Positions 24,148-64,000 of a stretch of 64,000 nt of DNA are shown piece by piece. The stretch is from the IMG/VR virus record IMGVR_UViG_3300027708_000021; one strand, 5' to 3'. A program made the position numbers and the translations under genes. The notes beneath the pieces are model-generated. The model ran no database searches. It saw only the letters and a list, made by a program, of their open reading frames with translations, and had not been told where the DNA came from. The DNA is from a virus. Positions within the stretch are counted from its first letter, which is position 1. Each line of letters opens with the position of its first letter.

Positions 24148-24149
24148 AC

Positions 24150-27038: not shown

Positions 27039-27416
27039 ATGGGTCATTTTGCTAAAATAGAAAACAATATCGTAACACAGGTTATTGTAGCCGAACAGGA
27101 TTTCATCGACGCTGGACATGTGGGCGATCCTAATAGTTGGGTACAAACTAGCTATAACACACGACGCGGAGTACATTATAATCCAGAAACAGGCCAACCA
27201 GATGGCGGTATAGCACTACGCGGTAACTACGCCAGAATTGGTCATATATATGATGCAGCGTTGGATGCTTTTTATCCGCCCAGTCCATTCCCAAGTTGGA
27301 CTATGAACACCACAACATACACTTGGCAAGCACCTGTACCACAGCCAACCGACGAAGGCAAAATCTTTGGTTGGAATGAAACAACTAAATCTTGGGATGA
27401 TCTAACCCCAGTTTAG
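27039..27416 (+). CDS. Small phage protein, possibly an adhesin/fibre assembly partner
   Basis: 'MGHFAKIENNIVTQVIVA...WVQTSYN...LRGNYA.IG..YD...DAF..P.PFPSW...WQAP.P.P...W.E....W'; own TAAATA and SD. Confidence 0.6.
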   Translation: MGHFAKIENNIVTQVIVAEQDFIDAGHVGDPNSWVQTSYNTRRGVHYNPETGQPDGGIALRGNYARIGHIYDAALDAFYPPSPFPSWTMNTTTYTWQAPVPQPTDEGKIFGWNETTKSWDDLTPV

Positions 27417-27433
27417 AAATAGGATAAAATAAT

Positions 27434-30400: not shown

Positions 30401-30897
30401 AGCCCAGTCAAAATCCTGGAATCGCCAATCTTACAAATTACGGTAATCCAGGTGGCCTAGGAGAAGGTGGCGGTGGCGCAACAGGAGTTGGAACAACCGC
30501 CGGCGGCGCCGGATATACTTGGCCGTTTACAGGAAATATCTATGCGGGCGGCGGTGGTAAAGGTGGATACGCTGGTAGCGGTGCTGGTGCCAGTGGTCCA
30601 GGTGGTGGCGGTGCTGGAAATCCTGGTGGTGGTGGAACTGCGCCTGCTGGTACACCAGGTCTAGGTGGTGGTGGTGGCGGAGCAGGCACTAATTTTTGTA
30701 GCAGACCTCGCCAACAATCATATGGAGGCCCTGGTGGATCTGGTACAGTTATATTAGCTGTGCCAAACATAGCTTATCCAACTATAGTTGCGCCTGGAGC
30801 AGCAGTATCAACACCACCTGCTGCGCCTGGATATACTGTATTAACTTATACAGCGCCAACACCTGGTACTCCAGCAACATTTACATTTACCACTTAA
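27434..30897 (+). pseudogene. Adhesin-like gene (N-tag, 3 Ig-like, 3 Gly-rich) split by a 1-nt frameshift near 29070 into ORFs 27434..29089 and 29086..30897
   Basis: ...PPAA-QDQQY* becomes ...PPAA-PGSTVLTFATPSPG with one added base, matching the paralog consensus PPAAPGxTVLTY. Confidence 0.8.
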
Positions 30898-30939
30898 TAT
30901 AACAATTATTCCAAGCTAATATATGCCATAAATATCTTT

Positions 30940-44637: not shown

Positions 44638-44657
44638 AAATTAAGATAAAGTGAGAA

Positions 44658-44685
44658 AACAGGACCCTTGTGGTCCTGTTGTTTT
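44658..44685 (+). terminator. Probable terminator (AACAGGACC-CTTGT-GGTCCTGTT-GTTTT)
   Basis: 9-bp stem just after the stop of 40366..44637. Confidence 0.7.
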
Positions 44686-44716
44686 GACTAAATAATACTA
44701 ATATATTGGAAAAACA

Positions 44717-47700
44717 ATGGGCTTAACACGAATCCGCGCAGAGCAAATATCAGACATTGATTATAAACAAGCAGTTAGAGTCATCTCAACTTCTGACGTT
44801 AATTTAACCGGCGGAGCTCCCAGTCAAGTCGACGGTGTATCTCTTAATGTCAAAGATAGAATCCTAGTAACAGGACAAAGTACTGCTAGCCAAAACGGAC
44901 TATATGATGTAACTGTAGTTGGTAGTGGATCAAATGGCACTTGGGTAAGAACGTCAGATTCTAATGCCACTGGTGAAATCAATGCCGGTATGATTGTCAT
45001 GGTTACCGAAGGTAACACCTACGCAGATACCTCCTGGAAATTAATCACAGATGATCCTATTGTAATAGGTATTACAGCATTAACATTCTTACAAAATACT
45101 GGTAATTCTTTCAGTATTATCGATATCGTAGGCAGCGCAAATGTTGTAGCCAATGCTGTAAGTAGTACAGTATCATTTGCCAGTGGAAACAATTTTTCAA
45201 TTACCGGCAATGCTGCGGCCGACACAATCACATTCAATGTCGTTCAGAATCCAAGTTTCACTGGTAATGTCTACGGCGGCAATCTACTAACTGCTGGTTT
45301 AATAAGTGCCACTGGCAATGCTATAGTTGGTAATTTATCAGCAACAGGTAATATCGCTGGCAATTACTTTATTGGTAACGGAGCATTTTTAACAGGTATA
45401 TCAGGTGGTAACAGTGGTGGTAGTGGCAGTAATATTTCTAATGGCACAAGTAATATAACAGTAGTAGGCGCCAACGATAATATCACGGTGGGTGTAAGTG
45501 GAGTGGGCAATGTTGTAGTATTTGCCCCTACAGGAGAATATGTTACTGGTTTAATAAGTGCTACAGGCAACGTTACTGGTAATTACATCTTAGGCAACGG
45601 TAGTCAATTAACTAATACAAGCATTTCGGTCAGTAATTGGTATACTGGTAATGTAATATCGAATAGTATTTCCAATATAGAATTTTTAAGATTTAATGCT
45701 AACTCAGGTATTTCAGTCAGTGACCTGGGCAATAATTCTGCATTGGTTACTCTAGGTAGCTCATTTAAAACTTGGGAAGTAGCTGGCCAAGCTAACTTAG
45801 TTGCTGTTGGCGAAGATGTTGTTCAATTTGTAGCTGGTAATAATATTGTTATCACTACTAATGCTAATGTTATACCACAACAAATTTCTTTTGCAGTTAA
45901 TAGTAATTTAACTGGAATAAGTGTAAGTGTAACAGGCAATGTTACCGGTGGCAATTTACTGACAGGTGGATTAATTTCAGCTACTGGAAATATCTATGGA
46001 ACAAATTTTATTGGTAACCTAAGTAATGGTAATAGTAAAATTAGCGTGGCCAACAATGGCAATGTCACAGTTGGAATAGGACCGTTTGATACAACTTATG
46101 TAACCATTGCCCCGGCGTTGCTCAGTGTAACTGGTAACATTATTGCCAGCGGCAACATAACTGTTGTTGGTAATATCTCAGCTAATAATAGTATAATTAC
46201 TGGATTTGAATCAGTAACTGGCAATGTTTATGGTGGTAATATATTAACAGCTGGGTTAATTTCAGCAACATCAACTATAACAAGTGCTGCTAATATTAGC
46301 GGCGGTAATATATTGACAGCTGGATTAATTTCAGCAACATCGACTATAACAAGTGCTGCTAATATTAGCGGTGGTAATATATTAACAGCTGGATTAATTT
46401 CAGCAACATCGACTATAACAAGTGCCGCTAATATTAGCGGTGGTAATATATTAACAGCTGGACAGTTAAGTGCGGTGGGCAACGCGATAGCTGGCAATCT
46501 AGCAACAGCAGGCATAGTAACAGCAACTGGTAATGTTATTGCCGGTAATATCTTAACTGGCGGGCTAGCATCGATAACTGGAAATATTACAACTGCCGGC
46601 AATATTAATACAGCTAATATATATGGAGCTACGGGCGTAACTATTGCTACAGGCGGTAATAATAATATTAATTTATATCCAGGCGGTACTGGTAATATTG
46701 TATTACCATCTGGTAATGCCACTTATATTAATAATTTACCGCTAACCCCGGTACAAGATAACGATGCGGCATCCAAATATTATGTTGATATATTAGCGTC
46801 ATCGGGTCTTGCGTATCATACGCCAGTTTATGTGGCCACCACAACAACTTTGGCTACAACTACCGGTGGCACAATTACATACGCTCAGCCTAACGGAGCT
46901 GGCAACGGTATTGGAGCAACAATTACTACAACTGGGTCGTTTAATTTAATCGATACCGGTAATGTACAAACTGTAGGTACCCGCATCTTAGTTAAAGACG
47001 AAGCTAATGCTGTTCTTAACGGAATATACACTTGGTCCAATGCTACTGCGATTGTTCGTAGTACTGACGCAGATGAATATGGTCCAGATAGTGCTAATGC
47101 TTTAAGTCTTAATGATTATTTCTTTACAACTAACGGTAATGTCAACATTGGTACCGCATTTATTGTTAATGCGCCACCTGGTGTCATTACTTTTGGCACA
47201 AGCAACATTACCTTTGCGACATTTAGTACAAATCAAACTTATACCAGCGGCAACGGTATCAGTATTGCTGGTACTGTAATTAACGCTAGAGTCGATAATG
47301 TTACAACAGCATTTGATCTTGGCGGCAATATTAGTGTAAAAGCCGGTGCTAATTTAACGACTCCAAATATTGGCGCTGCCACTGGTACAAGTTTAAGTGC
47401 TACTGGAGCATTACAAGCTGGAACAACGATCAGTGCCGCTGGTAATGTCACTGGCGGTAATATATTAACAGGTGGATTAGTAAGTGCTACCGGCAATGTT
47501 ACTGGTAATTATATACTAGGTAACGGAGCATTATTAACTGGTGTTACTACATCAAGTAATACGATATTCAACGCTAATAGTAATGTAGCAATAGCCACAG
47601 CCAATGCCAATGTCACAGTATCAGTAAGCACGGTAGGTAACGTGGTAGTTATAACTCCAACTGGATTGAGTGTCACAGGTACAATAACTTCTACTGGCAA

Positions 47701-50320
47701 CGCAACAGCCGGTAATATTCTAACTGCTGGATTAATGTCAAGTACTGGCAATGCTATTCATGGTAATATTTTAACTGCTGGACTAATAACAGCTACAGGC
47801 AATATTACTGGTGGTAATATTCTAACTACTGGATTAATGTCAAGTACTGGCAATGCTATTCATGGTAATATTTTAACTGCTGGACTAGTAAGTGCTACTG
47901 GCAACGCAACAGCCGGTAATATTCTAACTACTGGATTAATTTCTGCTACTTCAACTATAATAAGTGCCGCTAATATTAGTGGTGGTAATATTTCAACAGC
48001 TGGACTAATAACAGCTACAGGCAATGTTACTGGTGGAAATATATTAACTGCTGGATTAATCTCAGCTACAGGTAATGCCACTAGCGGTAATATTTCAACA
48101 GCCGGACTAATAACAGCTACAGGCAATGTTACTGGTGGCAATTTATTAACTGGTGGCAATATCACTGCTACTGGTAATGTAACAGCATTAGGGTTTGTAT
48201 CCACGGGCGGTACTGGCGTAATTTCTGGCACTGGTAATGTTATTGCTGGAAATATTTTAACAGGTGGAGTAGTTTCAGCCACCGGTAATGTAACCGGTAA
48301 CTACTTTATTGGTAATGGCAGTCAATTAACTGGAGTTGCTGCGTCAAGTGTTAACGCTAACGCTTTGGTTGGTACAACATTAAGTTCAAATGTATTGATT
48401 AGTAGTCTAACAGCCGTTGGCACATTGTCTATATTAAGTGTAGCAGGTAATACAACTAGTGGAAATTTATTAACTCCTGGACTACTAAGTGCTACTGGTA
48501 ATCTTACTGGTAATTATATCCTGGGTAACGGAGCATTTTTAACTGGGGTCTCTACATCATACAATACGATATATAACGGCAATAGTAATGTAACAATAGA
48601 TAGTGCTAATGCTAATATTACTTTGGCAGTAAGCACAGTAGGAAATGTGGCAGTATTTACTACAACTGGATTGAGTGTTACAGGTACTGTAACTTCTAAT
48701 GGTAATATCACTGGCGGTAATATAACAACAGCTGGACTACTTAGTGCTACTGGCAATGTCATTGGCGGTAATATAACAACAGCTGGATTAATCAGTGCTA
48801 CTGGTAATGCTCAAGCAGGTAATATATTAACAGCTGGATTAATTTCAGCGACCTCAACAATTACAAGTGCTGCTAATATTAGTGGTGGCAATATACTAAC
48901 GACTGGATTGATCAGTGCTACTGGTAATATAATTTCTCCAGACTTTATTGGTAATCTAAGCAATGGTAATAGTAAAATTAGTGTGGCTACTGACGGTAAT
49001 GTTACAGTCGGCCTAGGCGCAAATAATACAACATATCTAACTGTTTCTCCAGGATTACTTAGTGTAACTGGTAATATTAAAGCTAGTGGTTTTGTCAGTG
49101 CTGTTGGTAACGTCATTGGTAATTACTTTGTTGGTAATGGTAGCCAATTAACTGGAATTATAGCCAGTGCTGGAGCGGCTATTACTAATGGTAATAGTAA
49201 TGTAACTGTAAATGAGAATGGTAATGTAACAGTAGGAGTCACTGGAGTCAGCAATGTTCTAGTTATATCACCAGACGTAGTAAGTGCTACTGGAAATCTT
49301 GCTGGTAATTATATACTGGGTAACGGAGCATTATTAACGGGCGTTACTACATCAAGCAGTACCATATTCAACGGCAATAGTAATGTAGCAATAGCCACAG
49401 CTAACGCAAATATCACAGTATCAGTAAGCACAGTAGGTAATGTAGCAGTATTCACTCCAACTGGATTAAGCGTTACAGGCAATGTATATGGTAATTTATT
49501 TGTATCTTCAGGTAGCGGCGGTGGAATATCTGCTCCAGGTAATATCGTTGGCGGAAACCTCATTACAGCCGGTAATGTTACAGGTAATTATTTTATAGGT
49601 GACGGTAGTCAATTAACGGGTATTGTTTCCACAGCGGCAAATCTTAGTAATGGTTTAAGTAACGTTACTATAGCTAGTGCCAATGCCAATGTTACAGTTT
49701 CAGTAAGCGGTACTGGTAATATTGCGGTGTTCACTCCATCCAGTATCAATATCACTGGCAATATTACCGCAACTGGTAATATAGTAGCTGGTGGTGTTAG
49801 ATCTACTTCCAGTGCTAGTGCCCCAACAAATCCTACTACTGGCGATTTCTGGTATGATACCAGCACTAATACACAGTATAGATTTACCTTTGACGGTACT
49901 AATTATTACTGGATAGATGATTTTGGTGCTACTGCTGCAACACAGCCGTTGTTCACAGGGCCGGTGTTATTTAACGATGTTTCGACCCAGACCAACGGCC
50001 AAAAAGGTGTATTTGCCCTGAAAAATAATCAGGCCAATGTTGCTGGCGTGGCTAATAGTAAACAGTTACAAGTTGTTTTAAACGGGGCAGTACAAACCCC
50101 ATTTGTCAAGACTTGGGTATGGCCTTTCTGGTGTGTAGATGTTAGTTTTAAAGGATTTAAAGTAACTACTCTAGGATATAGTGCTACAGCTAATTCCGTA
50201 GTTCTTTATAGACCTCCTGCCAAAGGAACTCAAGTGAGCATAACTCAGGTAAATACAGCTACAGATTCGCAGTTGTTAAGATACCCATATTCAGCAACTA
50301 CTATAGCGATTTCAGATTAA
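44717..50320 (+). CDS. Long tail-fibre-like protein, 1867 aa
   Basis: Many GNILTAGLISATGN repeats; 'DRILV..Q....QNGLY' domain. Confidence 0.7.
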   Translation: MGLTRIRAEQISDIDYKQAVRVISTSDVNLTGGAPSQVDGVSLNVKDRILVTGQSTASQNGLYDVTVVGSGSNGTWVRTSDSNATGEINAGMIVMVTEGNTYADTSWKLITDDPIVIGITALTFLQNTGNSFSIIDIVGSANVVANAVSSTVSFASGNNFSITGNAAADTITFNVVQNPSFTGNVYGGNLLTAGLISATGNAIVGNLSATGNIAGNYFIGNGAFLTGISGGNSGGSGSNISNGTSNITVVGANDNITVGVSGVGNVVVFAPTGEYVTGLISATGNVTGNYILGNGSQLTNTSISVSNWYTGNVISNSISNIEFLRFNANSGISVSDLGNNSALVTLGSSFKTWEVAGQANLVAVGEDVVQFVAGNNIVITTNANVIPQQISFAVNSNLTGISVSVTGNVTGGNLLTGGLISATGNIYGTNFIGNLSNGNSKISVANNGNVTVGIGPFDTTYVTIAPALLSVTGNIIASGNITVVGNISANNSIITGFESVTGNVYGGNILTAGLISATSTITSAANISGGNILTAGLISATSTITSAANISGGNILTAGLISATSTITSAANISGGNILTAGQLSAVGNAIAGNLATAGIVTATGNVIAGNILTGGLASITGNITTAGNINTANIYGATGVTIATGGNNNINLYPGGTGNIVLPSGNATYINNLPLTPVQDNDAASKYYVDILASSGLAYHTPVYVATTTTLATTTGGTITYAQPNGAGNGIGATITTTGSFNLIDTGNVQTVGTRILVKDEANAVLNGIYTWSNATAIVRSTDADEYGPDSANALSLNDYFFTTNGNVNIGTAFIVNAPPGVITFGTSNITFATFSTNQTYTSGNGISIAGTVINARVDNVTTAFDLGGNISVKAGANLTTPNIGAATGTSLSATGALQAGTTISAAGNVTGGNILTGGLVSATGNVTGNYILGNGALLTGVTTSSNTIFNANSNVAIATANANVTVSVSTVGNVVVITPTGLSVTGTITSTGNATAGNILTAGLMSSTGNAIHGNILTAGLITATGNITGGNILTTGLMSSTGNAIHGNILTAGLVSATGNATAGNILTTGLISATSTIISAANISGGNISTAGLITATGNVTGGNILTAGLISATGNATSGNISTAGLITATGNVTGGNLLTGGNITATGNVTALGFVSTGGTGVISGTGNVIAGNILTGGVVSATGNVTGNYFIGNGSQLTGVAASSVNANALVGTTLSSNVLISSLTAVGTLSILSVAGNTTSGNLLTPGLLSATGNLTGNYILGNGAFLTGVSTSYNTIYNGNSNVTIDSANANITLAVSTVGNVAVFTTTGLSVTGTVTSNGNITGGNITTAGLLSATGNVIGGNITTAGLISATGNAQAGNILTAGLISATSTITSAANISGGNILTTGLISATGNIISPDFIGNLSNGNSKISVATDGNVTVGLGANNTTYLTVSPGLLSVTGNIKASGFVSAVGNVIGNYFVGNGSQLTGIIASAGAAITNGNSNVTVNENGNVTVGVTGVSNVLVISPDVVSATGNLAGNYILGNGALLTGVTTSSSTIFNGNSNVAIATANANITVSVSTVGNVAVFTPTGLSVTGNVYGNLFVSSGSGGGISAPGNIVGGNLITAGNVTGNYFIGDGSQLTGIVSTAANLSNGLSNVTIASANANVTVSVSGTGNIAVFTPSSINITGNITATGNIVAGGVRSTSSASAPTNPTTGDFWYDTSTNTQYRFTFDGTNYYWIDDFGATAATQPLFTGPVLFNDVSTQTNGQKGVFALKNNQANVAGVANSKQLQVVLNGAVQTPFVKTWVWPFWCVDVSFKGFKVTTLGYSATANSVVLYRPPAKGTQVSITQVNTATDSQLLRYPYSATTIAISD
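46232..46462 (+). repeat. About 3.3 tandem copies of a 69-bp unit (GGNILTAGLISATSTITSAANIS)
   Basis: Units start at 46232, 46301, 46370 and 46439; differences are synonymous. Confidence 0.9.
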
Positions 50321-54003: not shown

Positions 54004-56622
54004 ATGGCATTCCCTAGCTCACCAACAAACGGTCAACAGACCACTATAAACGGTATAACTTATCAGTATTCCAGTACTAGTAATTCGTGGACTAGAGTAA
54101 TATTACCATTTGCTAATATAGCGGCCAACGGTTATATTACTGCTACCAGTTATATCAGTGCAGCTGGCAATGTCCTTGGCAATAATATCATTGCCACTGG
54201 CAATATAGTTGGTAACTTAACTACTTCTGGCGCCGTATCTACTACGGGTAATATCTACGGTGGCAATGCGCTAATTTCTGGAAATGAATCAGTAACAGGT
54301 AATGTTATAGCCGGTAATATCTCTACAGGCACTTTCAGTGCCACTGGTAATATCACATCAAATAGTTATATTATCGGTAACGGAGCATTCTTATCCGGCA
54401 TACTTGTCAGCAGCTCAGGCAATATTTCTAGTGGTCAAAGTAATGTATCTATAAATGCTGCCAATGCCAATGTGACAGTTGGCGTAAGCACAGTGGGTAA
54501 TGTAGCAGTATTCACTCCTCTAGGATTAAATGTCACCGGCGCTATTAGTGCCAGTGGTAATGTAACAGGATTAGGATTTTTAAGTACAGGCGGTGCTGGA
54601 GTTATTTCTGGTTCTGGTAACATTATCGCAGGTAATTTCTTTTCTACTGGTAATATAAGTGTAGCAGGTAATGTAACAGGGGTGGGGCTTATATCCACAG
54701 GTGGCGCTGGTACTGTCAGTGCTAGTGGTAATGTAACTGGCGGAAATTTATTAACACCTAATAATGTTAGTGCTGGCGGTAATATAACCAGTGCAATATT
54801 TGTTACTACTGGAGCTAACGGTATAATATCTGGTGCTGGTAATATCTATGCTGGTAATATAAGTGCTACTGGCAATATCCTGGCTAATTTTGCAAGTGTC
54901 GTAGGTAACATATACGGCGCCAATATTATTGTAAATAATTTTGCTATCCTCTCAAGTTTTAGTGTTACTGGTAATATCACTGGAGGGAATCTACTTACTC
55001 CTAACAATGTTAGTGCTGGCGGCAATGTAACAAGCGCGGCTCTTGTTACCAGCGGAGCTGGTGGCATACTATCTGGTACAGGTAATATCTTTGCCGGTAA
55101 TATAAGTGCTAGTGGTAATATTTTTACCGGCACTAATTTAAGTGCTAGTGGCAATGTCTTAACAAGCGGCCTAATCAGCGCCGCTGGTAATGTTCTTGGT
55201 AATAATGTTTCGGCTAATATCTTAAATGCTACCAATTATATCAGTACCGTTGGTAATATATACGGAGCCGCTGCTACCATAGGTAATATAACCGTTACTG
55301 GAAGTTACAGCCTTACTGGTAATGTTGTTGGCGGAAATTTATTAACTAGTGGCTATGTCAGTGCTACTGGTAATGTAACGAGTTCAGCACTAATCACTAG
55401 CGGAGCTGGTGGTTTAATATCTGGTACAGGTAATATCTTTGCCGGTAATATAAGTGCTAGTGGTAATATTGTAGCCAACATTAGTTCAGCTAATACCATC
55501 AGTGCTGTCGGTAACATATTCAGTGCTAATGCAAACATAGGAAATTTATTTACAACATCGAGTTTCAGTACCGCCGGCAATCTAACAGGAAATACTATCC
55601 TTACTTCAGGTACTGCGGGCAACATTTCCGGTTCAGGTAACATCATTGCTGGTGCGTTGATTACAATCGGAACAGGTGGTATCATATCTGGTACTGGCAA
55701 CATTATTGCCGGTAATATACTTTCTACGGGTAATCTCGTCACAGCATCGGGTACAGGTGGTAATATTACTGGCGCCAATGTTATCTCTTCTAATACATTT
55801 AATGCAGTCACAGTCAGTGCTACTGGTAACGTATACGGTGCCAATGCTATTATAGGTAATATATCTATTACTGGAAATTACAGCGTTACAGGTAATGTAA
55901 CCGGTAATAATATTACTACTCTAGGTAGTGCGGGTAATATCTCCGGTTCAGGTAATATCATCGCTGGTGCTTTGATTACTACTGGCGCTGGCGGCATACT
56001 ATCTGGTACTGGTAACATCTATGCTGGCAATATAATTTCTGCGGGTAATCTCGTCACAGCATCGGGCACTGGTGGAAATATTACTGGGGCCAACGTTATC
56101 TCTGCTAATACATTTAGTGCTGTGGTAGTAAGTGCCACGGGTAATATACAAACAAGTAATTATTTCGTTGGCAATGGTTTTTACATAACAGGAGTTGGCG
56201 GACTCAATATCACTGATCAGCTAGCATCAGCTAATGTATTCTATCCGTTATTAGGCAACACTTCATCTGGTACACTAAATGCTGTTAACACTAGCAGTAC
56301 TAAATTAAACTATGTACCCAGTACCGGTACACTAAGCTCTACGGTATTTAATACTACATCTGATGCTGATAAAAAATCAAATATTGAAATTATAGCCAAC
56401 GCACTAGATATCGTTAACAATTTACGCGGGGTGACATTTGAATTCACTGACACTGGCGCACAGTCAGCTGGCTTGATAGCACAGGATGTGGAAAAATATT
56501 TGCCCCAGCTGGTAACAGCGTCAGACAACGGCAAGGCATTAAACTATAATGGAGTGATTGGCATACTGGTCGAGGCAGTGAAAACCCTGTCTGAGCAAGT
56601 CAAGAAATTGGAGGGCAAGTAA
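54004..56622 (+). CDS. Tail fibre with C-terminal peptidase S74 intramolecular chaperone
   Basis: 'TSDADKKSNI...ALD.V..LRGV.F...GLIAQDVE..LP.LV...LNYNG....LVEAVK.L'. Confidence 0.85.
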   Translation: MAFPSSPTNGQQTTINGITYQYSSTSNSWTRVILPFANIAANGYITATSYISAAGNVLGNNIIATGNIVGNLTTSGAVSTTGNIYGGNALISGNESVTGNVIAGNISTGTFSATGNITSNSYIIGNGAFLSGILVSSSGNISSGQSNVSINAANANVTVGVSTVGNVAVFTPLGLNVTGAISASGNVTGLGFLSTGGAGVISGSGNIIAGNFFSTGNISVAGNVTGVGLISTGGAGTVSASGNVTGGNLLTPNNVSAGGNITSAIFVTTGANGIISGAGNIYAGNISATGNILANFASVVGNIYGANIIVNNFAILSSFSVTGNITGGNLLTPNNVSAGGNVTSAALVTSGAGGILSGTGNIFAGNISASGNIFTGTNLSASGNVLTSGLISAAGNVLGNNVSANILNATNYISTVGNIYGAAATIGNITVTGSYSLTGNVVGGNLLTSGYVSATGNVTSSALITSGAGGLISGTGNIFAGNISASGNIVANISSANTISAVGNIFSANANIGNLFTTSSFSTAGNLTGNTILTSGTAGNISGSGNIIAGALITIGTGGIISGTGNIIAGNILSTGNLVTASGTGGNITGANVISSNTFNAVTVSATGNVYGANAIIGNISITGNYSVTGNVTGNNITTLGSAGNISGSGNIIAGALITTGAGGILSGTGNIYAGNIISAGNLVTASGTGGNITGANVISANTFSAVVVSATGNIQTSNYFVGNGFYITGVGGLNITDQLASANVFYPLLGNTSSGTLNAVNTSSTKLNYVPSTGTLSSTVFNTTSDADKKSNIEIIANALDIVNNLRGVTFEFTDTGAQSAGLIAQDVEKYLPQLVTASDNGKALNYNGVIGILVEAVKTLSEQVKKLEGK

Positions 56623-59600
56623 TGCCTTTTAATCAAGACAATTCAGATATATCTACATATTTTTCCAAGATAACGGATTATAGCGGGTGGACCAACTATT
56701 CCAGTGCCCAAGTAATTGGCAATAACAGTTATGGGCAGTTGGGTCTCAACACTAGAACTAACTATAGTAGCCCAGTGGTGGTAACACAAAGTACTAATCC
56801 CACTTGGCTAGATGCCGCGTATGTTAGATCTGGCCTTGGTCTAGCTTTAGTAAATCAAAATAATCAACCATTCTATTCTGGAGTAGCATTTTCAGATACC
56901 ACTAACAGAAGTAGTCCAGTACAAGTTAGCGCAGTAAGCAACTGGACACAAGTTGCTTGCGGATATGCTCACACCGCAGCTCTACAAAATAATGGCACAT
57001 GGTGGACTTGGGGAATAAATAGTTACGGACAACTAGGCCTTAGTAATACAACTAATAGATCAAGCCCGATTCAAGTAGGCACATTAAATAGCTGGACACA
57101 AGTCTCGTGTGGGTATATGTACACTACAGCTATAATAAGTCCTGGCATCTTATATGCCTGTGGATATAATAGCAGCGGTCAACTAGGCCTTAATACGAGT
57201 ACAACAGCCATCTCCAGTCCAGTTCAATTAGGTTTAGGACTGGCAGCTTTGTGGAATCAAGTTTCTGCTGGAGTGCAGTCCGCATTAGCTATACAAAGCA
57301 ATGGTACACTATGGTCATGGGGCAATAACAGTTATGGTCAATTAGGTCTTAGTAATATAACTCATAGAAGTAGTCCAGTACAAGTAGGCGCAATAAATTA
57401 TTGGACACAAGTTGCTGCTGGGTATTATCATGTTGCGGCCATACAAAGCCCTGGCACCTTATGGACCTGGGGACAAAATAATTTTGGTCAATTGGGTAAT
57501 AATAGTATAACTAATCAATCAAGTCCAATACAAATATCATATCCATTGCTAGGGTTAGCATCATGGCGAAGTCTTGGGTCGTTTTTCGGGTGGCATCAAT
57601 TAGGTATACAAACCAATGGCACGTTGTGGGCTTGGGGATGGAATGTCACTGGCCAGTTAGGACTTAGTAATACAACTGCTAGAAGTAGTCCAGTACAAGT
57701 TGGCACATTAAGTACCTGGACTCAGGTTGCTGGTGGTGGCCTCAATAATGGTTTTACCATAGCTATACAAACACCAGGCACACTTTGGGCATGGGGTAAT
57801 GATGGGTATGGGCAATTAGGTCTTAACACTACAACAAATTATTCTAGTCCAGTACAAGTAGGCGCACTAACTAATTGGACTCGAATTGCTGTCGGAGCAG
57901 CATATTATACTACAGTAATCCAAAGCAATGGTACACTATGGTCGTGGGGTAATAATAGTTTTGGTCAATTAGGTGTAAGTAATAGTACCCACTATTCTAG
58001 CCCAGTACAAGTAGGAGCATTGAGTGTTTGGACTCAAGTGGCATGTGGTTATAGCCATACTGTAGCTATACAAACTAATGGTACACTTTGGAGTTGGGGA
58101 GCTAATACTCGTGGACAATTAGGACTTAATACTACTACCATAAATTTATATAGTCCAGTTCAAGTGGGCGCACTAAGCACATGGACTCAAATCTCATGTG
58201 GATATTACCATACACTAGCATTACAAACACCAGGCACATTATGGGCCTGGGGACTTGGCCTAACCGGCCAATTAGGAAATAATAGTACAATAATTCAGAT
58301 TAGTCCAGTACAAATAGGCGCTCTAAGTAATTGGACTCGGGTATCTGGTGTGGCTACGGCCTCTTTCGCTATACAAACGCCAGGCACATTATGGGCATGG
58401 GGAGCAAATAGTACTGGCCAATTAGGTCTCAATACCACAGTAGGAGTGTTTAGTCCAGTACAAGTAGGATCACTAAGTAATTGGACTCAAGCAGGTGGTA
58501 TATCATTGCTCAGTGCGTGGGGTTTAGTAAGCCCGGGTGTGTTATATGAATGGGGTAATAATAGTTATGGTCAATTAGGAGCCAATACCGCAGCAACTAA
58601 TCCGGTATCAAGTCCAGTATTAATATATTCGGCTACAATTCCTGGTACTTGGAATCGTGTAGCATGTGGATATGGCCATACTGTTGCTATACAAAGCAAT
58701 GGCTCATTATGGTCGTGGGGAATAAATAATTACGGACAACTAGGCCTTGGCGATACAGTTAATAGAAGTAGTCTAATACAAATAGGATCAGCAAGTGCAT
58801 GGACCCAAGTCTCCGCTGGCGTCAATCAGATCTATGCGCTACAAAGTCCAGGAACATTATGGGCATGTGGTTACAATGGCTTTGGTCAGTTGGGTAATAA
58901 TAGTGTATTTAATGTATCAAGTCTAGTACAAGTGGGCACAATTAACTACTGGACACAAGTGGTCGGTGGCGGTGATTCTGCGTTTGGAATACAAAGTCCT
59001 GGAACATTATGGGCTTGGGGCAATAATAGTTATGGCCAATTAGGGTTTAGTGATCAAACAAATCGTTCTAGTCCAGTACAAGTAGGTCCTCTGAGTATAT
59101 GGACTCAAGTCTCTGCTGGGAATAACTTTGCTATTGCTGCACAGAGTAATGGTACGCTATGGGCGTGGGGTCTAAACAGTCAAGGCCAATTGGGTCTCAA
59201 TACCACAGTTGGTGTATCTAGCCCAGTACAGGTAGGCACGTTAAGCATATGGACTCGAGTGGCAGCTGGATTTTATTCTTCTTACAGTATCCAAACGTCA
59301 GGTACATTATACTCATACGGATTTAACTCGCTTGGAGAATTAGGACAAGGCGATACTACTAATCGTTCCAGTCCATTACAAATAGGTTCTGGACTATGGA
59401 CTCAGGTATCAGCTGGTTATCAGCATGCCGCAGCTATACAAAGTCCAGGCACATTATGGTCCTGGGGTAATGATGGGTATGGCCAATTAGGCCTTGGCAC
59501 TATAATTAATAGAAGTAGTCCAACACAAATTGGTGCGTCGAGTATATGGACTCAAGTTTCTTGTGGTCAATTAAATACTGTAGCTATACAAAGATACGGG

Positions 59601-61982
59601 GCTACATCATCAGGTACATTATGGACTTGGGGTAATAATAGTTTTGGGCAATTAGGACTTAATGATACCACACACCGTTCAAGCCCAGTTCAAGTAGGTG
59701 CGTTGACCACTTGGACACAAGTCTCCTGTGGATATTATGTTACAGCGGCTATACAAAACAACAGTACATTATGGATTTGGGGTTATAATAATCTTGGCCA
59801 ATTAGGACTTAATGATCTTACCAATAGAAGTAGTCCAGTACAGATAGGCGCACTTAGTACATGGACTCAAGTTTCTGCTGGATATCGTGTTACTGCTGGA
59901 CTAACAGCGCCAGGAATACTATATGCGTGGGGTAATAATAACAACGGGCAATTGGGACTTAACACTACTATTGGTGTATCAACACCTGTACAAGTAGGAA
60001 CATCAAGTACATGGACTAGTGTTACTAGCTCGTCGCAAGAGACATTGGCTATACAAAATAATGGCACATTATATGCGTGGGGATTGAATAGTTTTGGTCA
60101 GTTAGGCTTGTATAATCCGGCAGCATATTCAATTACCAATTACCCTAGTCAGTTCAGCACAGGAAATTATAAAAAAGTTACTACCAGCTATACCCAGAGC
60201 TATTTCCAAAAAACCGCGGATAATACCATAGTTCAGACTGGCACAGCAGATATACCCACTATAGATACCACTAACAGTATAGCTTGGTCAAGTTATGATA
60301 CAGGAGCTTATCATTTTGTTGGAGTACAAACCAATGGTACCGCTTGGAGTATAGGCGACAATAGTTATGGTCAACTGGGCCTTAATACTACAACAAGTAG
60401 TTACTCATCATTGACTCAGATCGGGTCTGGTTCCAACTGGGCAAGAGCCATAGCCGCTGATTACGGAAGTATGTTGATTGACAACAGCAATAATGCTTGG
60501 GTGTTTGGCAATAACAGTCAGTATCAACTGGGGTTAAGCGATCAAACCAACAGATCAAGTCCAGTACAGATTGCCTATATCACTGGTATTAGAAATGCAG
60601 CCATGGACAACAGTAACGTTTGGATGATCGATGGCAACAATAATCTCTGGGGCGGTGGTGCGTATAATGTCAGAGTAGCTATTAATACTTTACCAAATGT
60701 ATCAACACCTAGCCAAGCACCATTGAGTAACTGGACTACAGTGGTTGCCACGCAATATTCCACTCTTGGCATACAAAGCAATGGTACACTATGGTCATGG
60801 GGCAATAACAGTTATGGTCAATTAGGACAAGGAAATTTAACAAATCTTTCTACTCCTGTACAAGTTGGTGCCCTGAGTACCTGGACTAAGATTTCTGGTG
60901 TGGTTTCCACTGTTGCTATACAAACCAATGGCACATTATGGTCTTGGGGATTGAATAACGTTGGCCAATTAGGCAGTAGCAATACAACTAATAGAAGCAG
61001 TCCAGTACAGGTAGGAGCATTGAGTGTTTGGACACAAATTGCCTGCGGATATGCTCATACCGCATCTGTACAAACTAATGGTACGTTGTGGAGTTGGGGA
61101 GCCAATTCGTTTGGTCAATTAGGACTTAACGACGTGACAATTCGTTTAAGTCCAGTACAAGTGGGCGCATTGAGTGTATGGACTCGAGTGGCTAGTGGAG
61201 CTGCGCAAACTGCGGCATTACAGACTAATGGTACATTATGGGCCTGGGGTAATAACAGTTTTGGTCAGTTAGGTCTCAACGATGTGACACATCGTTCTAG
61301 TCCGGTACAAGTAGGTTCGTTAAGCACATGGACTCAAATTTCTTCTGCGCTTTCAGGTTATGCCACTGCAGCCATACAAACTCCTGGCACATTATGGATG
61401 TGGGGACTTAACACTTATGGACAATTAGGTTTAAATGATATAACCAATCGTTCTAGTCCAGTACAGGTAGGCGCACTTAGTACATGGGCCCGTGTTGCCT
61501 GCGGATATCAACACACTTTATCTGCGCTGAGTGATGGTACATTATATGTGTGGGGTAATAACAGCTACGGACAATTAGGTCTTAGTAATTCGACTAACAG
61601 AAGTAGTCCGGTACAATTAGGATCAACAAGTACATGGGCTCAGATCTCTGGTGGATATTTTCACACTACCGGAATACAAACTCCAGGTACATTGTACACT
61701 TGGGGTTATAATTTATTTGGGCAATTAGGTTTACCTGCTGTTCAATTTCCAAGACAACAGTTTGCCAGCAACTTATGGAACAATGCGGCTACCAATCAGG
61801 ATACTACATTATTAGTTTCTGTGAATAGTATAGTATATGGATTTGGAGTTAACAGCTATGGACAGTTAGGCATCAATACTTCTGGAGCTCCTTATCAATC
61901 TAGCCCCATACAAATTGGCTTTATAAATACTACAACAAAGGTAGAGACCAAAGCTGGTTCTTCTATAATATTATTTAAATGA
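56622..61982 (+). CDS. Giant RCC1/BLIP-II repeat protein, ~35 repeats (five propellers predicted)
   Basis: Hand count of 35 blades including degenerate ones; TAATG coupling to the fibre gene. Confidence 0.9.
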   Translation: MPFNQDNSDISTYFSKITDYSGWTNYSSAQVIGNNSYGQLGLNTRTNYSSPVVVTQSTNPTWLDAAYVRSGLGLALVNQNNQPFYSGVAFSDTTNRSSPVQVSAVSNWTQVACGYAHTAALQNNGTWWTWGINSYGQLGLSNTTNRSSPIQVGTLNSWTQVSCGYMYTTAIISPGILYACGYNSSGQLGLNTSTTAISSPVQLGLGLAALWNQVSAGVQSALAIQSNGTLWSWGNNSYGQLGLSNITHRSSPVQVGAINYWTQVAAGYYHVAAIQSPGTLWTWGQNNFGQLGNNSITNQSSPIQISYPLLGLASWRSLGSFFGWHQLGIQTNGTLWAWGWNVTGQLGLSNTTARSSPVQVGTLSTWTQVAGGGLNNGFTIAIQTPGTLWAWGNDGYGQLGLNTTTNYSSPVQVGALTNWTRIAVGAAYYTTVIQSNGTLWSWGNNSFGQLGVSNSTHYSSPVQVGALSVWTQVACGYSHTVAIQTNGTLWSWGANTRGQLGLNTTTINLYSPVQVGALSTWTQISCGYYHTLALQTPGTLWAWGLGLTGQLGNNSTIIQISPVQIGALSNWTRVSGVATASFAIQTPGTLWAWGANSTGQLGLNTTVGVFSPVQVGSLSNWTQAGGISLLSAWGLVSPGVLYEWGNNSYGQLGANTAATNPVSSPVLIYSATIPGTWNRVACGYGHTVAIQSNGSLWSWGINNYGQLGLGDTVNRSSLIQIGSASAWTQVSAGVNQIYALQSPGTLWACGYNGFGQLGNNSVFNVSSLVQVGTINYWTQVVGGGDSAFGIQSPGTLWAWGNNSYGQLGFSDQTNRSSPVQVGPLSIWTQVSAGNNFAIAAQSNGTLWAWGLNSQGQLGLNTTVGVSSPVQVGTLSIWTRVAAGFYSSYSIQTSGTLYSYGFNSLGELGQGDTTNRSSPLQIGSGLWTQVSAGYQHAAAIQSPGTLWSWGNDGYGQLGLGTIINRSSPTQIGASSIWTQVSCGQLNTVAIQRYGATSSGTLWTWGNNSFGQLGLNDTTHRSSPVQVGALTTWTQVSCGYYVTAAIQNNSTLWIWGYNNLGQLGLNDLTNRSSPVQIGALSTWTQVSAGYRVTAGLTAPGILYAWGNNNNGQLGLNTTIGVSTPVQVGTSSTWTSVTSSSQETLAIQNNGTLYAWGLNSFGQLGLYNPAAYSITNYPSQFSTGNYKKVTTSYTQSYFQKTADNTIVQTGTADIPTIDTTNSIAWSSYDTGAYHFVGVQTNGTAWSIGDNSYGQLGLNTTTSSYSSLTQIGSGSNWARAIAADYGSMLIDNSNNAWVFGNNSQYQLGLSDQTNRSSPVQIAYITGIRNAAMDNSNVWMIDGNNNLWGGGAYNVRVAINTLPNVSTPSQAPLSNWTTVVATQYSTLGIQSNGTLWSWGNNSYGQLGQGNLTNLSTPVQVGALSTWTKISGVVSTVAIQTNGTLWSWGLNNVGQLGSSNTTNRSSPVQVGALSVWTQIACGYAHTASVQTNGTLWSWGANSFGQLGLNDVTIRLSPVQVGALSVWTRVASGAAQTAALQTNGTLWAWGNNSFGQLGLNDVTHRSSPVQVGSLSTWTQISSALSGYATAAIQTPGTLWMWGLNTYGQLGLNDITNRSSPVQVGALSTWARVACGYQHTLSALSDGTLYVWGNNSYGQLGLSNSTNRSSPVQLGSTSTWAQISGGYFHTTGIQTPGTLYTWGYNLFGQLGLPAVQFPRQQFASNLWNNAATNQDTTLLVSVNSIVYGFGVNSYGQLGINTSGAPYQSSPIQIGFINTTTKVETKAGSSIILFK

Positions 61983-63472
61983 CCTCAAGCAATTATCTTA
62001 ATAATGCTGTTGATCTGGACAGCACATACATAGTTAACAATGATCCTAACTATCAAGGTATCCAGTCGGCGGTTACAAGTAGAAAGACTGTGATGTTTGG
62101 TCAGCAGATATTATCACAGACATATCCCATAGGCAATCTTAATAATGCTATCAACTATGCTCAATCTATACCCAGTCCAATAGTTGACCAAGACTCTGTT
62201 AATATTACTGGAGTAACACCTACTGCTGTATTTTATCGAAGTCGCGCCAACACCAGTCAAAGCACAGTAAGAGGAAATTTTAATCTACTAGAAAATATTC
62301 CGCAGACTACACCCTGGCAGACCACTCCCTCGCTGGGAAATTCCAGTACGCCAGTACAGTCAGGTTCTACGGCCAGTAACTGGAGTCAAATTGCATCTAA
62401 TTACCAGAGCGGCAGTGGCGGCGCCCCGGGGCTGGCTCCTGCGCTTGCACTTCAAAGCAATGGCACATTATGGGGTAGCGGATATAATAGCCGAGGCGCA
62501 TTGGGAAATAATTCTACTTCTGATTCAACTTTTTTCCAGCAAGTAATTGGACCCAACGCAACAGGTCCGATTAATTCTTGGTCTCAGGTTGTTGGTAGTA
62601 AGTGGGTATTGGCCATACAAAGTAATGGCACACTATGGTCATGGGGCTATAATCTTGCCGGCGAGTGCGGCCTCGGTACTGCCAATAATTCTTTCTCCAG
62701 TCCAGTACAAATAGGCACATCGCTTTGGTCTAAAATTGCTTGTGGTTACTCGTCTAATTTGGCCATACAAACTAATGGCACATTGTGGGCTTGGGGTCAG
62801 CAAAGATACGGACAATTGGGAAATGGGTCAACTGTTATAGGTAGTCTTAGTAGTCCAGTACAAATAGGCATTCAAAGTTATTGGGTCAATGTGGCCAATG
62901 GAAGTAGAAATAGTTTTATGTTTCAAAACAATGGCGTACTATGGGGTTCGGGAGATAATATTTTTGGAGCATTGGGAAATAATACCACTACCAGTTTTTC
63001 TACCCCCGTACAGGTAAGCACAATTAGTAATTGGAGTCAAGCAGCTTGCGGGTATAACTTTAGTGTAGCATTGCAAAGTAATGGCACGCTGTGGACGTGG
63101 GGTAATAATAGTTTTGGTCAGTTGGGTCAAAGCGATCTAATAAATCGCTCCAGTACAACACAAGTAGGCTCACTGAGTACATGGGTACAGATTGCCTGCG
63201 GCTATAGTCATGCTGTGGCTGTTCAAAGCAATGGCACAATATGGGCATGGGGCAATAATAGTTTTGGTCAGTTGGGTCTAAGTGATGTGACGCATCGTTC
63301 AAGTCCAGTACAGGTGGGTGCGCTGAGTGCGTGGACTCGTGTTGCTTGTGGAGGATATTATACTCTAGCTGTAAACAATGGTGTAATATATGGGTGGGGG
63401 AATAACTCTGCTGGTCAGTTTGGGCTTACTCCCACGGCAAATTCAGTAACTAAAGTAACATATGGATTATAA
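61979..63472 (+). CDS. RCC1-repeat protein: N-terminal domain plus 7 repeats
   Basis: Seven '[ST/N]NG.[LI][WY]..G' repeats; ATGA coupling. Confidence 0.88.
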   Translation: MTSSNYLNNAVDLDSTYIVNNDPNYQGIQSAVTSRKTVMFGQQILSQTYPIGNLNNAINYAQSIPSPIVDQDSVNITGVTPTAVFYRSRANTSQSTVRGNFNLLENIPQTTPWQTTPSLGNSSTPVQSGSTASNWSQIASNYQSGSGGAPGLAPALALQSNGTLWGSGYNSRGALGNNSTSDSTFFQQVIGPNATGPINSWSQVVGSKWVLAIQSNGTLWSWGYNLAGECGLGTANNSFSSPVQIGTSLWSKIACGYSSNLAIQTNGTLWAWGQQRYGQLGNGSTVIGSLSSPVQIGIQSYWVNVANGSRNSFMFQNNGVLWGSGDNIFGALGNNTTTSFSTPVQVSTISNWSQAACGYNFSVALQSNGTLWTWGNNSFGQLGQSDLINRSSTTQVGSLSTWVQIACGYSHAVAVQSNGTIWAWGNNSFGQLGLSDVTHRSSPVQVGALSAWTRVACGGYYTLAVNNGVIYGWGNNSAGQFGLTPTANSVTKVTYGL

Positions 63473-63476: not shown

Positions 63477-64000
63477 ATGGCAGATTTCGCATACGGCTTT
63501 AGACAAAATACCAATTATGTTATCACAAGTAACACGATGTATGAGATTGGTCGCAATTATAGATTTAATCAATCTGTGCCCTGCCAGACAGCTAATCAGG
63601 CAAATTACTGGACTCAGGTTTCCACCGGCAGTCAATATGCTTTAGGAATAGAAAGTCCAGGAACATTGTGGTCTTGGGGAAATAACAGTTTTGGTCAATT
63701 AGGGTTAAACACATCAACAGGTAACTTTTCTACTCCTATACAAGTGGGTACATCGAGTCTATGGACACAAATTTCAGCTGGCCCTCAGTTTGCTCTAGCT
63801 ATCCAAACACCTGGCACATTGTGGTCGTGGGGGAATAATACCCAAGGACAGTTAGGGCAGAGTAACACTACTAACTATAGTAGCCCAATCCAAGTAGGTA
63901 CGACATCAACTTGGACTAGAGTGGCTTGTGGATATTATCACGCTGTAGCTTTACAAGCGAATGGTTCATTATGGACTTGGGGTAATAACAGTTACGGTCA
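63477..64000 (+). CDS. RCC1-repeat protein, 3'-truncated, missing from the ORF track
   Basis: MADFAYGFRQ...[33 protein letters not shown]...; frame is open to the end of the window. Confidence 0.88.
   Translation, partial: MADFAYGFRQNTNYVITSNTMYEIGRNYRFNQSVPCQTANQANYWTQVSTGSQYALGIESPGTLWSWGNNSFGQLGLNTSTGNFSTPIQVGTSSLWTQISAGPQFALAIQTPGTLWSWGNNTQGQLGQSNTTNYSSPIQVGTTSTWTRVACGYYHAVALQANGSLWTWGNNSYG

What the first reader, a model, noticed from the sequence alone, without database searches (positions are those of the whole stretch)
56622..61982. Branched tree of five nested propellers in a 1786-aa RCC1 protein
Seen (hand count): blade groups 2 degenerate | 2 | 2 | 7 | 10 | 4 degenerate | 7 | 1 degenerate = 35. 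Atypical linkers lie at ~57228 (LGLGLAALW), ~57534 (ISYPLLGLASW), ~58617 (VLIYSATIPGTW), ~60108 (LYNPAAYSITNYP), ~60708 (PSQAPLSNW) and ~61734 (PAVQFPRQQFASNLW). The degenerate blades sum to 7 (2+4+1), a base propeller. It would carry one arm of three nested propellers (2+5, 2+5, 7) and a second arm of one. Each predicted closing blade has LY (VLYEW, TLYSY, TLYAW, TLYTW). The 5+5 split of the 10-group rests on that LY blade rather than a clear linker. Inference: a branched, multivalent protein grown by repeated whole-propeller insertion, repeating the pattern of 19972 in a second gene.
Basis: partly seen in the sequence, partly recalled or inferred. Interest (0 to 1): 0.85.

Follow-up and report, generated by a model that had tools for sequence, protein, structure and literature searches.

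The report
Propellers nested inside propellers, phage protein
A 1786-residue protein in the tail-fibre region of a giant phage appears to be built from five seven-bladed beta-propellers that are inserted into one another like a branching Russian doll rather than strung in a row, an arrangement I found described nowhere.

Summary
The C-D hairpin is exactly 9 aa in all 22 typical units and deviates only at the proposed junctions.

The nested, branched reading is well supported but not proven for every level.
- **Homologs:** In 23 homologs the degenerate "base" blades are conserved markers. The sequence between them is always about 0, 7, 14, 21, 28 or 63 repeats (45 arms, mean deviation 0.03 of a propeller), at four insertion sites.
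- **Paralog model:** The AlphaFold2 model of the 19972 protein (whole, 1108 aa) contains three complete RCC1 propellers on concentric ranges: 264-630, about 150-860 and 21-1108.
- **Target model:** The only folded propeller is aa 308-671, exactly between two atypical linkers. The two outer shells of arm 1 did not fold and rest on linker arithmetic, which recurs in three other proteins.
- **Base closure:** A complex test gave only weak support.

The gene lies in a jumbo-phage virion module, so a multivalent adhesin is the likely role; this is inferred. The same scan's first-stage notes had already flagged this pattern in two neighbouring genes. I found no described propeller-in-propeller precedent.

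The parts
56622..61982 (+). Whole ORF: 1786-aa RCC1-repeat protein (P0001) with 35 repeat units
   Evidence: RBS and overlapping start codon
56622..56933 (+). Base propeller, N-terminal part (aa 1-104; two degenerate blades; marker A)
   Evidence: Conserved at 35-69% identity at the N-terminus of 17 or more homologs
56934..57236 (+). Arm 1, outer propeller A, first 2 units (aa 105-205). It ends at the atypical linker VQLGLGLAALW (aa 201-211).
   Evidence: Linker length 11 instead of 9. Assignment to propeller A is inferred from 2+5=7.
57237..57545 (+). Arm 1, middle propeller B, first 2 units (aa 206-308). It ends at the linker IQISYPLLGLASW (aa 303-315).
   Evidence: Linker length 13. Assignment is inferred from 2+5=7.
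57546..58634 (+). Arm 1, innermost propeller C: 7 contiguous units (aa 309-671)
   Evidence: In the AF2 model of P0001:95-1180, full RCC1/UVR8 propellers align to model residues 214-577, which is aa 308-671 (Z 33, rmsd 2.5-2.8, 325-332 aligned)
58635..59387 (+). Arm 1, middle propeller B, last 5 units (aa 672-922). It runs from the linker VLIYSATIPGTW (aa 666-677) to the short linker LQIGSGLW (aa 919-926, the only GELG unit).
   Evidence: Not folded in the model. Inferred.
59388..60125 (+). Arm 1, outer propeller A, last 5 units (aa 923-1168). It exits at LYNPAAYSITNYP (aa 1163-1175).
   Evidence: The exit motif LYNPAAY...NYPSQF is conserved in homologs directly before base marker B.
60126..60713 (+). 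Base propeller, middle part (aa 1169-1364; four degenerate blades; markers B, C1, C2)
   Evidence: Markers at 34-94% identity in 23 homologs. They are contiguous in some and split by 7-unit blocks in others.
60714..61757 (+). Arm 2: propeller D, 7 contiguous units (aa 1365-1712), between the linkers PNVSTPSQAPLSNW and AVQFPRQQFASNLW
   Evidence: This block is absent in P0039-type homologs and present in P0083, P0043 and P0054.
61758..61982 (+). Base propeller, C-terminal part (aa 1713-1786; last degenerate blade plus closing strands; marker D, which ends ...KVETKAGSSIILFK)
   Evidence: Conserved at the C-terminus of homologs

Best explanation
The protein is a tree of five seven-bladed RCC1-like beta-propellers made by domain insertion.

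**Architecture.**
- A divergent base propeller is assembled from three separate stretches: aa 1-104, 1169-1364 and 1713-1786.
- Two of its C-D hairpins are opened.
- The first carries an arm of three propellers nested in one another: A is 2+5 units, B is 2+5 units, and C is 7 contiguous units.
- The second carries a single propeller D.

**Why this is geometrically plausible (inferred; no coordinates were available).** An RCC1 propeller framed from linker to linker begins with an outer D strand and ends with the A-B-C strands of the same closing blade. Its two ends would therefore lie side by side, so it could sit in the C-D hairpin of a host blade.

**Family.** Related proteins use the same base and four permissive hairpins with 0 to 9 propellers per site, giving 2 to 13 propellers per protein.

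**Role (inferred).** The gene is translationally coupled to a tail-fibre gene in the virion module of a jumbo phage, and the protein is almost uncharged and rich in N/S/T. The likely role is a multivalent adhesin or fibre component on the virion surface. Each propeller would be held by two adjacent strands rather than one flexible tether, presenting several binding faces in fixed relative positions.
For: **1. Linker arithmetic (shown).** Hairpin length is 9 aa in all 22 typical units and deviates only at the predicted junctions. The groups 2|2|2|7|5|5|4|7|1 give 7 five times over. Random cuts do so in 0.03% (8 cuts) to 0.9% (7 cuts) of trials. The five proposed propellers come out at 347-374 aa each.

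**2. Comparative evidence (shown).**
- Base markers A, B, C1, C2 and D are found in 23 homologs.
- The extra sequence between them is about 0, 7, 14, 21, 28 or 63 units. Across 45 arms, length/352 aa deviates from an integer by 0.028 on average and 0.20 at most.
- Four sites are used in different combinations: P0143 0/7/0/7, P0009 14/7/0/7, P0040 21/0/7/7, P0014 28/0/0/7, P0004 7/7/0/28, P0210 7/0/0/0, P0198 63/0/0/21.
- A sequential chain would force the same conserved blades into different propellers in different homologs.

**3. Structure prediction of the paralog P0122 (whole, 1108 aa; pLDDT 64).** VIA-align places complete RCC1/UVR8/HERC2 propellers (Z 40-46, rmsd 2.0-2.4 A, 332-353 residues aligned) on three concentric ranges:
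- 264-630, contiguous.
- 142/163-851/870, with 337 residues aligned out of a 707-residue span.
- 21-1108, with 350 residues aligned out of a 1088-residue span.

The boundaries coincide with its four atypical linkers. The wide search repeats the inner and middle ranges.

**4. Target's own model.** The single folded propeller is aa 308-671, between linkers u6 and u13. It is not at the 7-unit register counted from the start of the arm.

**5. The same nested arithmetic recurs independently.**
- P0039 family: 2|7|5.
- P0122, P0119 and P0045: 2|3|7|4|5.
- P0198 site-4 arm: 3|2|7|5|4.
- P0210 arm: 7 units with no internal linker.

Four random cuts in 21 units parse validly in 51 of 4845 cases, or 1.05%.

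**6. Base closure.** The N-terminal piece (aa 1-106) was tested against aa 1168-1786.
- ipSAE was 0.36, against a best control of 0.00: weak support.
- That mark was reached by 58 of 80 solved complexes and 2 of 110 mismatched pairs. At 0.60 or under it was reached by only 7 of those 80 and by both mismatches that passed.
- The runs agree in at least 70% of contacts, and the partner's pLDDT is at least 58.

**7. Context.**
- Portal, major head protein and tail-fibre genes lie on the same strand.
- The major capsid protein is 66% identical to those of jumbo phages.
- An orthologous locus, L001, has the same order of three RCC1 genes.
- In phAPEC6, gp003 and gp005, annotated 'DNA condensation protein', appear in the virion proteome table. 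I take them to be among the phage's RCC1-like proteins, which the excerpt does not say outright (PMC7247149).
Against: - I never saw coordinates. Topology is read from the first and last aligned residues and the aligned lengths only.
- The model of the target's arm 1 is poor (pLDDT 43.8). Residues 802-1022 are unfolded, so propellers A and B of this protein are not shown structurally.
- The paralog model has moderate confidence (pLDDT 64, pTM 0.43), and only the best of five models was examined.
- The entry junction at u2 has a normal 9-residue hairpin, and the u18 junction differs by only one residue.
- Blade-position-specific similarity does not pick out the nested register.
- The automatic linker calls for the long arms of P0014 and P0198 (site 1) did not give a valid parse. 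P0054, with the same length, may branch differently.
- No base-only protein was found.
- The function is inferred from context alone. No anchoring domain or ligand is identified.
Confidence: 0.72

Rival explanations
1. The base propeller with inserted arms is real, but arm 1 (21 units) is organised differently inside. Examples are one propeller C flanked by a 4+3 propeller and a sequential sibling, or a branched '()()' form as is possible in P0054, rather than three concentric shells.
For: Propellers A and B did not fold in the target's model. The u18 linker is weak. P0054, a collinear ortholog, parses best as '' after two linker calls are dropped.
Against: A 4+3/7 split needs a junction at u16 and none at u4 or u18. 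Unit u16 is typical, while u4 (+2) and u18 (-1, the only GELG) are the atypical ones. The same concentric arithmetic is seen in P0122 (AF2-supported), the P0198 site-4 arm and the P0039 family.
Confidence: 0.14
2. This is an ordinary string of five sequential seven-bladed propellers. The atypical linkers are just loop variants.
For: 35 = 5 x 7 fits this reading too. Tandem RCC1-like domains are common. AlphaFold can mis-pair near-identical repeats.
Against: - The linkers are spaced 2, 2, 7, 5, 5, 4 and 7 units apart, not 7.
- The propeller folded in the target's own model spans aa 308-671, which is out of the sequential register.
- The paralog model is concentric.
- The conserved degenerate blades are separated by 0 to 63 units in homologs, always in multiples of 7.
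Confidence: 0.05
3. The degenerate stretches are not a propeller. They would be linkers or another small beta domain that merely separates cassettes of propellers, and the sum 2+4+1=7 is a coincidence.
For: Support for the base closure is only weak. HMM scores for these units are low (4-40 bits).
Against: The stretches keep the RCC1 pattern: GQLG or YQLG loops, xWxxG strands and SSPxQ. They count seven B-C loops. They are conserved as a set across homologs whatever lies between them. ESMFold2 gave the chain that holds five of the base blades plus arm 2 a pLDDT of 86-87.
Confidence: 0.07

Closest known systems
RCC1-like domains (RCC1, UVR8, HERC1/2 RLDs, RPGR, BLIP-II)
   Same: The same roughly 50-aa repeat (Pfam PF00415, PF25390) and the same seven-bladed fold (Z 33-46, rmsd 2.0-2.8 A over 325-353 residues).
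   Different: Known RLDs are contiguous single propellers, or separate RLDs along a chain as in HERC2. Here propellers are interrupted by other propellers. There is no evidence of GEF activity or chromatin binding.
UBR5 RCC1-like domain with inserted accessory domains
   Same: A discontinuous RCC1 propeller whose chain leaves between blades and returns. It has three insertions, after blades 1 and 4 (bioRxiv 10.1101/2022.11.03.515015).
   Different: The UBR5 inserts are a UBA domain and small beta-barrels on long loops. They are not further propellers, and the insertion is not recursive.
Integrin alpha-subunit propeller with the inserted alpha-I domain
   Same: A seven-bladed propeller with a whole domain inserted. 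From my own knowledge the site is between blades 2 and 3, close to the commonest site here (after unit 2). The insertion as such is in PMC12422189. Integrin propellers appear among the fold matches.
   Different: A different propeller family, a different inserted fold (vWA), and a single level.
DDB1 / CPSF160 / SF3B3 triple propellers and tandem propellers such as Aip1 and Elp2
   Same: Several seven-bladed propellers in one chain packed into a cluster, with strands exchanged at closures. The DDB1 double propeller is mentioned in papers found. The details are from my own knowledge.
   Different: These are WD40-like and essentially sequential with velcro cross-overs, not whole propellers nested to three levels. 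In the wide PDB search no chain aligned to more than one propeller of the P0122 model at a sensible rmsd. That is weak negative evidence.
RCC1-like proteins of jumbo phages (e.g. phAPEC6, eleven copies)
   Same: Multiple RCC1-like genes in a jumbo phage. In phAPEC6, gp003 and gp005 ('DNA condensation protein'), which I take to be among them, are listed in the virion proteome (PMC7247149).
   Different: Their architecture was not analysed, and the authors proposed a DNA-condensing role. No nested topology was described.

Membership tests
RCC1-like repeat beta-propeller superfamily (Pfam PF00415 / PF25390) | Tandem repeats of about 50 aa that match the RCC1 profile above the curated cut-off | tested here: met
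   PF00415 970 bits (cut-off 21.7) with 31 stretches; PF25390 1131 bits (cut-off 150)
RCC1-like repeat beta-propeller superfamily (Pfam PF00415 / PF25390) | Seven blades closing into one propeller | tested here: met
   aa 308-671 of the target aligns to whole UVR8/RCC1 propellers (Z 33, rmsd 2.5-2.8 A, about 328 aligned). Three such propellers are found in the paralog. The other four propellers of the target are inferred.
RCC1 proper (Ran guanine-nucleotide exchange factor) | Ran binding, a catalytic beta-wedge and chromatin binding | not tested
   No test was run. A phage virion context and 4% charged residues make this function unlikely.
Sequential multi-RLD proteins (HERC2-type beads on a string) | Each propeller is encoded by one contiguous run of seven repeats | tested here: not met
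   Concentric alignment ranges in P0122. Linker spacing of 2|2|7|5|5|4|7. Conserved base blades separated by 7n units.
Propellers carrying an inserted domain (UBR5 RLD, integrin alpha-I type) | The chain leaves the propeller between strands or blades, forms a separate domain and returns to complete the propeller | tested here: met
   Shown for P0122 by model ranges. For the target it is supported by homolog indels at four sites and by the boundaries of the inner propeller.
Phage tail fibre / receptor-binding protein | Encoded in the virion structural module next to fibre genes | tested here: met
   Portal, major head, tail-fibre (Peptidase_S74; PHROG tail fibre) and virion structural genes lie on the same strand. 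The start codon overlaps the stop of the fibre gene.
Phage tail fibre / receptor-binding protein | Present in the virion and binds a host surface receptor | not testable with these tools
   This needs virion mass spectrometry and binding assays.
Phage tail fibre / receptor-binding protein | An N-terminal anchor or trimeric shaft domain | tested here: inconclusive
   Pfam finds only RCC1 families. The N-terminus is part of the base propeller. How the protein attaches is unknown.

The most novel reading that the evidence does not exclude
Jumbo phages and their relatives use a recursive building rule. A seven-bladed RCC1 propeller, whose ends I infer to lie side by side in its closing blade, can be dropped into the C-D hairpin of a blade of another copy, again and again and at several sites. 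This yields single polypeptides that are trees of 2 to at least 13 propellers (P0198, 4655 aa). It would be a natural self-similar protein architecture. It would have consequences for folding order, since the inner propellers are completed first while the outer ones must wait for their distal blades. It would also allow rapid evolution of multivalent host-binding surfaces.
Probability: 0.6. Interest if true: 0.85.

Novelty: new variant of a known kind. Interest (0 to 1): 0.78.

Why it matters
- **Domain insertion.** It is known, but insertion of a fold into itself, repeated to three levels and branched, is not something I could find for any propeller. I checked three full-text literature searches, a survey of repetitive propellers (PMC9218822) and about 48,000 representative solved chains.
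- **Folding.** If real, this gives a natural test bed for how very long repeat proteins fold when near-identical blades could pair in many ways.
- **Annotation.** It explains the quantised lengths of a large set of unannotated 'alpha-tubulin suppressor-like RCC1' proteins in metagenomes.
- **Evolution and design.** It suggests a modular way in which phages change the valency and geometry of surface adhesins. It also offers a design principle for rigid multi-propeller scaffolds.

Tried and rejected
- **Blade-position similarity.** Tested between the proposed propellers in all cyclic registers, for both the nested and the sequential models. There was no signal either way, because the repeats are too uniform (about 55% identity everywhere).
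- **Mean similarity by unit offset.** No period-7 peak.
- **Global pairwise alignments to homologs.** The gaps are scattered because the repeats are interchangeable. They could not be used to locate the missing propeller, apart from a suggestive 98-aa gap at u3-u4 against P0039.
- **Regex and score-based linker maps.** Too brittle for divergent homologs. Replaced by HMM-derived hairpin lengths.
- **Automatic nested parses.** They failed for the 28-unit arm of P0014 and the 63-unit arm of P0198 even after dropping up to four calls. Units were probably missed or miscounted.
- **AF2 of the target's arm 1 with a mixed alignment.** pLDDT 43.8 with 220 residues unfolded. Both fold jobs were then spent, so the full base propeller and arms A and B could not be folded.
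- **Search for a base-only protein.** Only N-terminally truncated fragments on short contigs turned up (P0251, P0289).
- **ESM Atlas shape search.** Two-propeller matches with TM 0.4-0.54 that say nothing about nesting.
- **Searches that came back empty.** No near-identical DNA in the phage collection, no whole genome held for this window, and this exact protein is not on record.
- **PDB wide search.** No chain aligned to more than one propeller at a sensible rmsd. That does not show that none exists.
Full report
**1. What is there**

The ORF 56622-61982 (+) is intact and encodes 1786 aa. A GGAGG lies 8 nt upstream, and the ATG overlaps the TAA of the preceding gene. The next gene starts within its stop codon.

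Pfam sees nothing but RCC1-type repeats: PF00415 at 970 bits with 31 stretches, and PF25390 at 1131 bits. Splitting at the G[QE]LG loops gives 31 clear units and four degenerate ones, 35 in all. I number them u1-u35.

**2. The linkers**

Within each unit the stretch between the conserved Pro of 'SSP' and the conserved Trp is the hairpin between the third and fourth strands of a blade. It is exactly 9 residues in all 22 typical units.

It deviates only at u4 (11), u6 (13), u13 (12), u18 (8), u23 (long), u27 (14) and u34 (14), and inside the degenerate blades at u1 and u26.

The groups are 2|2|2|7|5|5|4|7|1. Read as brackets they give 7 five times:
- u7-u13.
- u5-u6 plus u14-u18.
- u3-u4 plus u19-u23.
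- u28-u34.
- The degenerate blades, 2+4+1.

The five propellers so defined measure 347-374 aa each. Random cuts satisfy such a parse in 0.03% of trials (8 cuts), 0.9% (7 cuts completed by one more) or 10% (the 6 strongest cuts). Taken alone, the arithmetic is suggestive but not decisive.

**3. Comparative evidence**

Database searches gave hundreds of long RCC1 proteins whose lengths cluster near 1080, 1430, 1800, 2130, 2500 and 2840 aa.

I used the degenerate stretches of this protein as markers:
- A = aa 1-100.
- B = aa 1163-1235.
- C1 = aa 1262-1300.
- C2 = aa 1318-1366.
- D = aa 1704-1786.

They turned up in 23 homologs at 34-94% identity, always in the same order. The sequence between them is either nothing or a block of about 7, 14, 21, 28 or 63 typical units. 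Over 45 such arms, length divided by 352 aa differs from an integer by 0.028 on average and 0.20 at most.

| Protein | Length (aa) | Units at the four sites |
|---|---|---|
| P0210 | 721 | 7/0/0/0 |
| P0039 | 1082 | 14/0/0/0 |
| P0143 | 1104 | 0/7/0/7 |
| P0083 | 1433 | 14/0/0/7 |
| This protein, P0054 | 1786, 1762 | 21/0/0/7 |
| P0009 | 1807 | 14/7/0/7 |
| P0040 | 2129 | 21/0/7/7 |
| P0014 | 2168 | 28/0/0/7 |
| P0004 | 2513 | 7/7/0/28 |
| P0198 | 4655 | 63/0/0/21 |

The simplest reading is a conserved seven-bladed base whose hairpins accept whole propellers. A purely sequential chain would put the same conserved blades into different propellers in different homologs.

**4. Structure prediction, paralog**

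The 19972-23298 protein (P0122, 1108 aa) fits the size limit whole. With a 22-sequence alignment AlphaFold2 gave pLDDT 64 and pTM 0.43.

The structural aligner, however, reports where complete solved propellers map onto the model. UVR8, RPGR, RCC1 and HERC1/2 chains (Z 40-46, rmsd 2.0-2.4 A, 332-353 residues aligned out of 360-400) fall on three concentric ranges:
- 264-630.
- 142/163-851/870, with about 337 residues aligned inside a 707-residue span.
- 21-1108, with about 350 residues aligned inside a 1088-residue span.

The search of 48,161 representative chains repeats the inner and middle ranges. The spans minus the enclosed propellers equal one propeller each. The boundaries fall on the four atypical hairpins of P0122, giving 2|3|7|4|5, which is conserved in P0119 and P0045. 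No templates were used, and I know of no solved precedent the network could have copied.

**5. Structure prediction, target**

The arm-1 segment aa 95-1180 gave a poor model: pLDDT 43.8, with model residues 708-928 unfolded.

The one complete propeller in it is model 214-577, which is aa 308-671 (Z 33, rmsd 2.5-2.8 A, about 328 aligned). That is exactly the stretch between linkers u6 and u13. It is not the first seven units of the arm, as a sequential register would require. The flanks of 4 and 10 units cannot form propellers on their own and must combine across it.

The 2+5, 2+5 split is favoured because u4 and u18 are atypical while u16 is not. This level is inferred, not seen.

The same concentric arithmetic recurs in the P0039 family (2|7|5, five sequences), in the site-4 arm of P0198 (3|2|7|5|4) and, trivially, in P0210 (7 units with no internal linker). 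Four random cuts in 21 units parse validly in 1.05% of cases.

**6. Base closure**

I asked whether aa 1-106 docks on aa 1168-1786. The verdict was weak support:
- ipSAE 0.36 (runs 0.32, 0.36 and 0.53) against a best control of 0.00.
- The mark was reached by 58 of 80 solved complexes and 2 of 110 mismatched pairs. At 0.60 or under it was reached by only 7 of those 80 and by both mismatches that passed.
- The runs agree in at least 70% of contacts, and the partner's pLDDT is at least 58.
- The large chain itself scored pLDDT 86-87.

**7. Context and likely function**

The window is the virion module of a jumbo myovirus-like phage:
- Portal, major head protein, virion structural proteins, and a tail fibre with the endosialidase-chaperone domain immediately upstream.
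- The capsid protein is 66% identical to those of Vibrio phage 2.275.O, Sinorhizobium phage Phosso and Pseudomonas phage PA5oct.
- A related metagenomic contig (L001) has the ortholog P0054 followed by two more RCC1 genes in the same order.

In phAPEC6 the virion proteome table lists gp003 and gp005 as 'DNA condensation protein'. I take these to be two of its eleven RCC1-like proteins, and their role is unknown (PMC7247149).

The fold resembles phiKZ gp131 and the bacterial propeller lectins only at the generic propeller level (Z 18-19). I therefore infer, but have not shown, a multivalent surface adhesin or fibre component.

**8. Comparison with what is known**

The repeats and the fold are ordinary RCC1. 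Discontinuous RCC1 propellers with inserted accessory domains exist in UBR5. Integrin alpha chains carry the I domain inside their propeller.

Propellers inside propellers, recursively and branched, did not turn up in three literature searches. They are not mentioned in a survey of highly repetitive propellers in which the RCC1/BLIP-II group makes up 10% (PMC9218822). They did not appear among the solved chains searched. These are weak negatives.

**9. Verdict**

The base-plus-arms design is strongly supported by comparative data. The concentric nesting is supported by a model of the paralog and by the boundaries of the target's inner propeller. The two outer shells of arm 1 and the closure of the base in this particular protein remain inferences.

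The genetic route is open. It could be insertion of a copy, or an out-of-register tandem duplication of seven repeats that then folds as a nest.

First-stage notes from the same scan had already flagged the pattern in 19972 and in the gene just beyond the window's end. None of those notes had been followed up.

Noticed in passing
window 19972-23298 (+): The paralog P0122 (1108 aa, 21 units) has atypical hairpins that give 2|3|7|4|5. Its AF2 model shows three concentric propellers. The pattern is conserved in P0119 and P0045.
   Followed up: yes
window 61979-63472 (+) and 63477-63998 (+, runs off the end): Two further RCC1 genes follow directly, with overlapping stop and start codons. The same three-gene order (1762, 462 and at least 1991 aa) is found in the related contig L001. 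The 497-aa protein has a non-RCC1 N-terminal part of about 190-290 aa.
   Followed up: partly
window 56622-61982; L001:1241-3910: The protein has only 4% D/E/K/R residues and 72 N-x-S/T sequons, against 36 +/- 5 in shuffled sequence. In L001, three genes with glycosyltransferase hits (a GT2-methyltransferase fusion, a GT2 and a GT9; the last two hits weak) lie directly upstream of the ortholog. Glycosylation of these propellers seems worth testing.
   Followed up: partly
P0198 (4655 aa, metagenomic homolog): It has the same base markers, with about 63 units at site 1 and 21 at site 4. That is about 13 propellers (91 blades) in one polypeptide. Its site-4 arm parses as 3|2|7|5|4.
   Followed up: partly
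P0054 (ortholog, 1762 aa): It has the same number of units as the target, but its linker calls fit a branched arm (2 [7] 2 [7] 3) better than three concentric shells. The tree shape may differ between orthologs of equal length.
   Followed up: no
window 14123-32727: An array of seven genes combines the Gly_rich_2 (PF21722) domain with He_PIG Ig-like domains. They are interleaved with the 19972 RCC1 gene and with a few minus-strand ORFs (24197-25587).
   Followed up: no
window 40366-50320: Two very large ORFs (1423 and 1867 aa) have no Pfam hit and at most faint PHROG tail-fibre hits.
   Followed up: no
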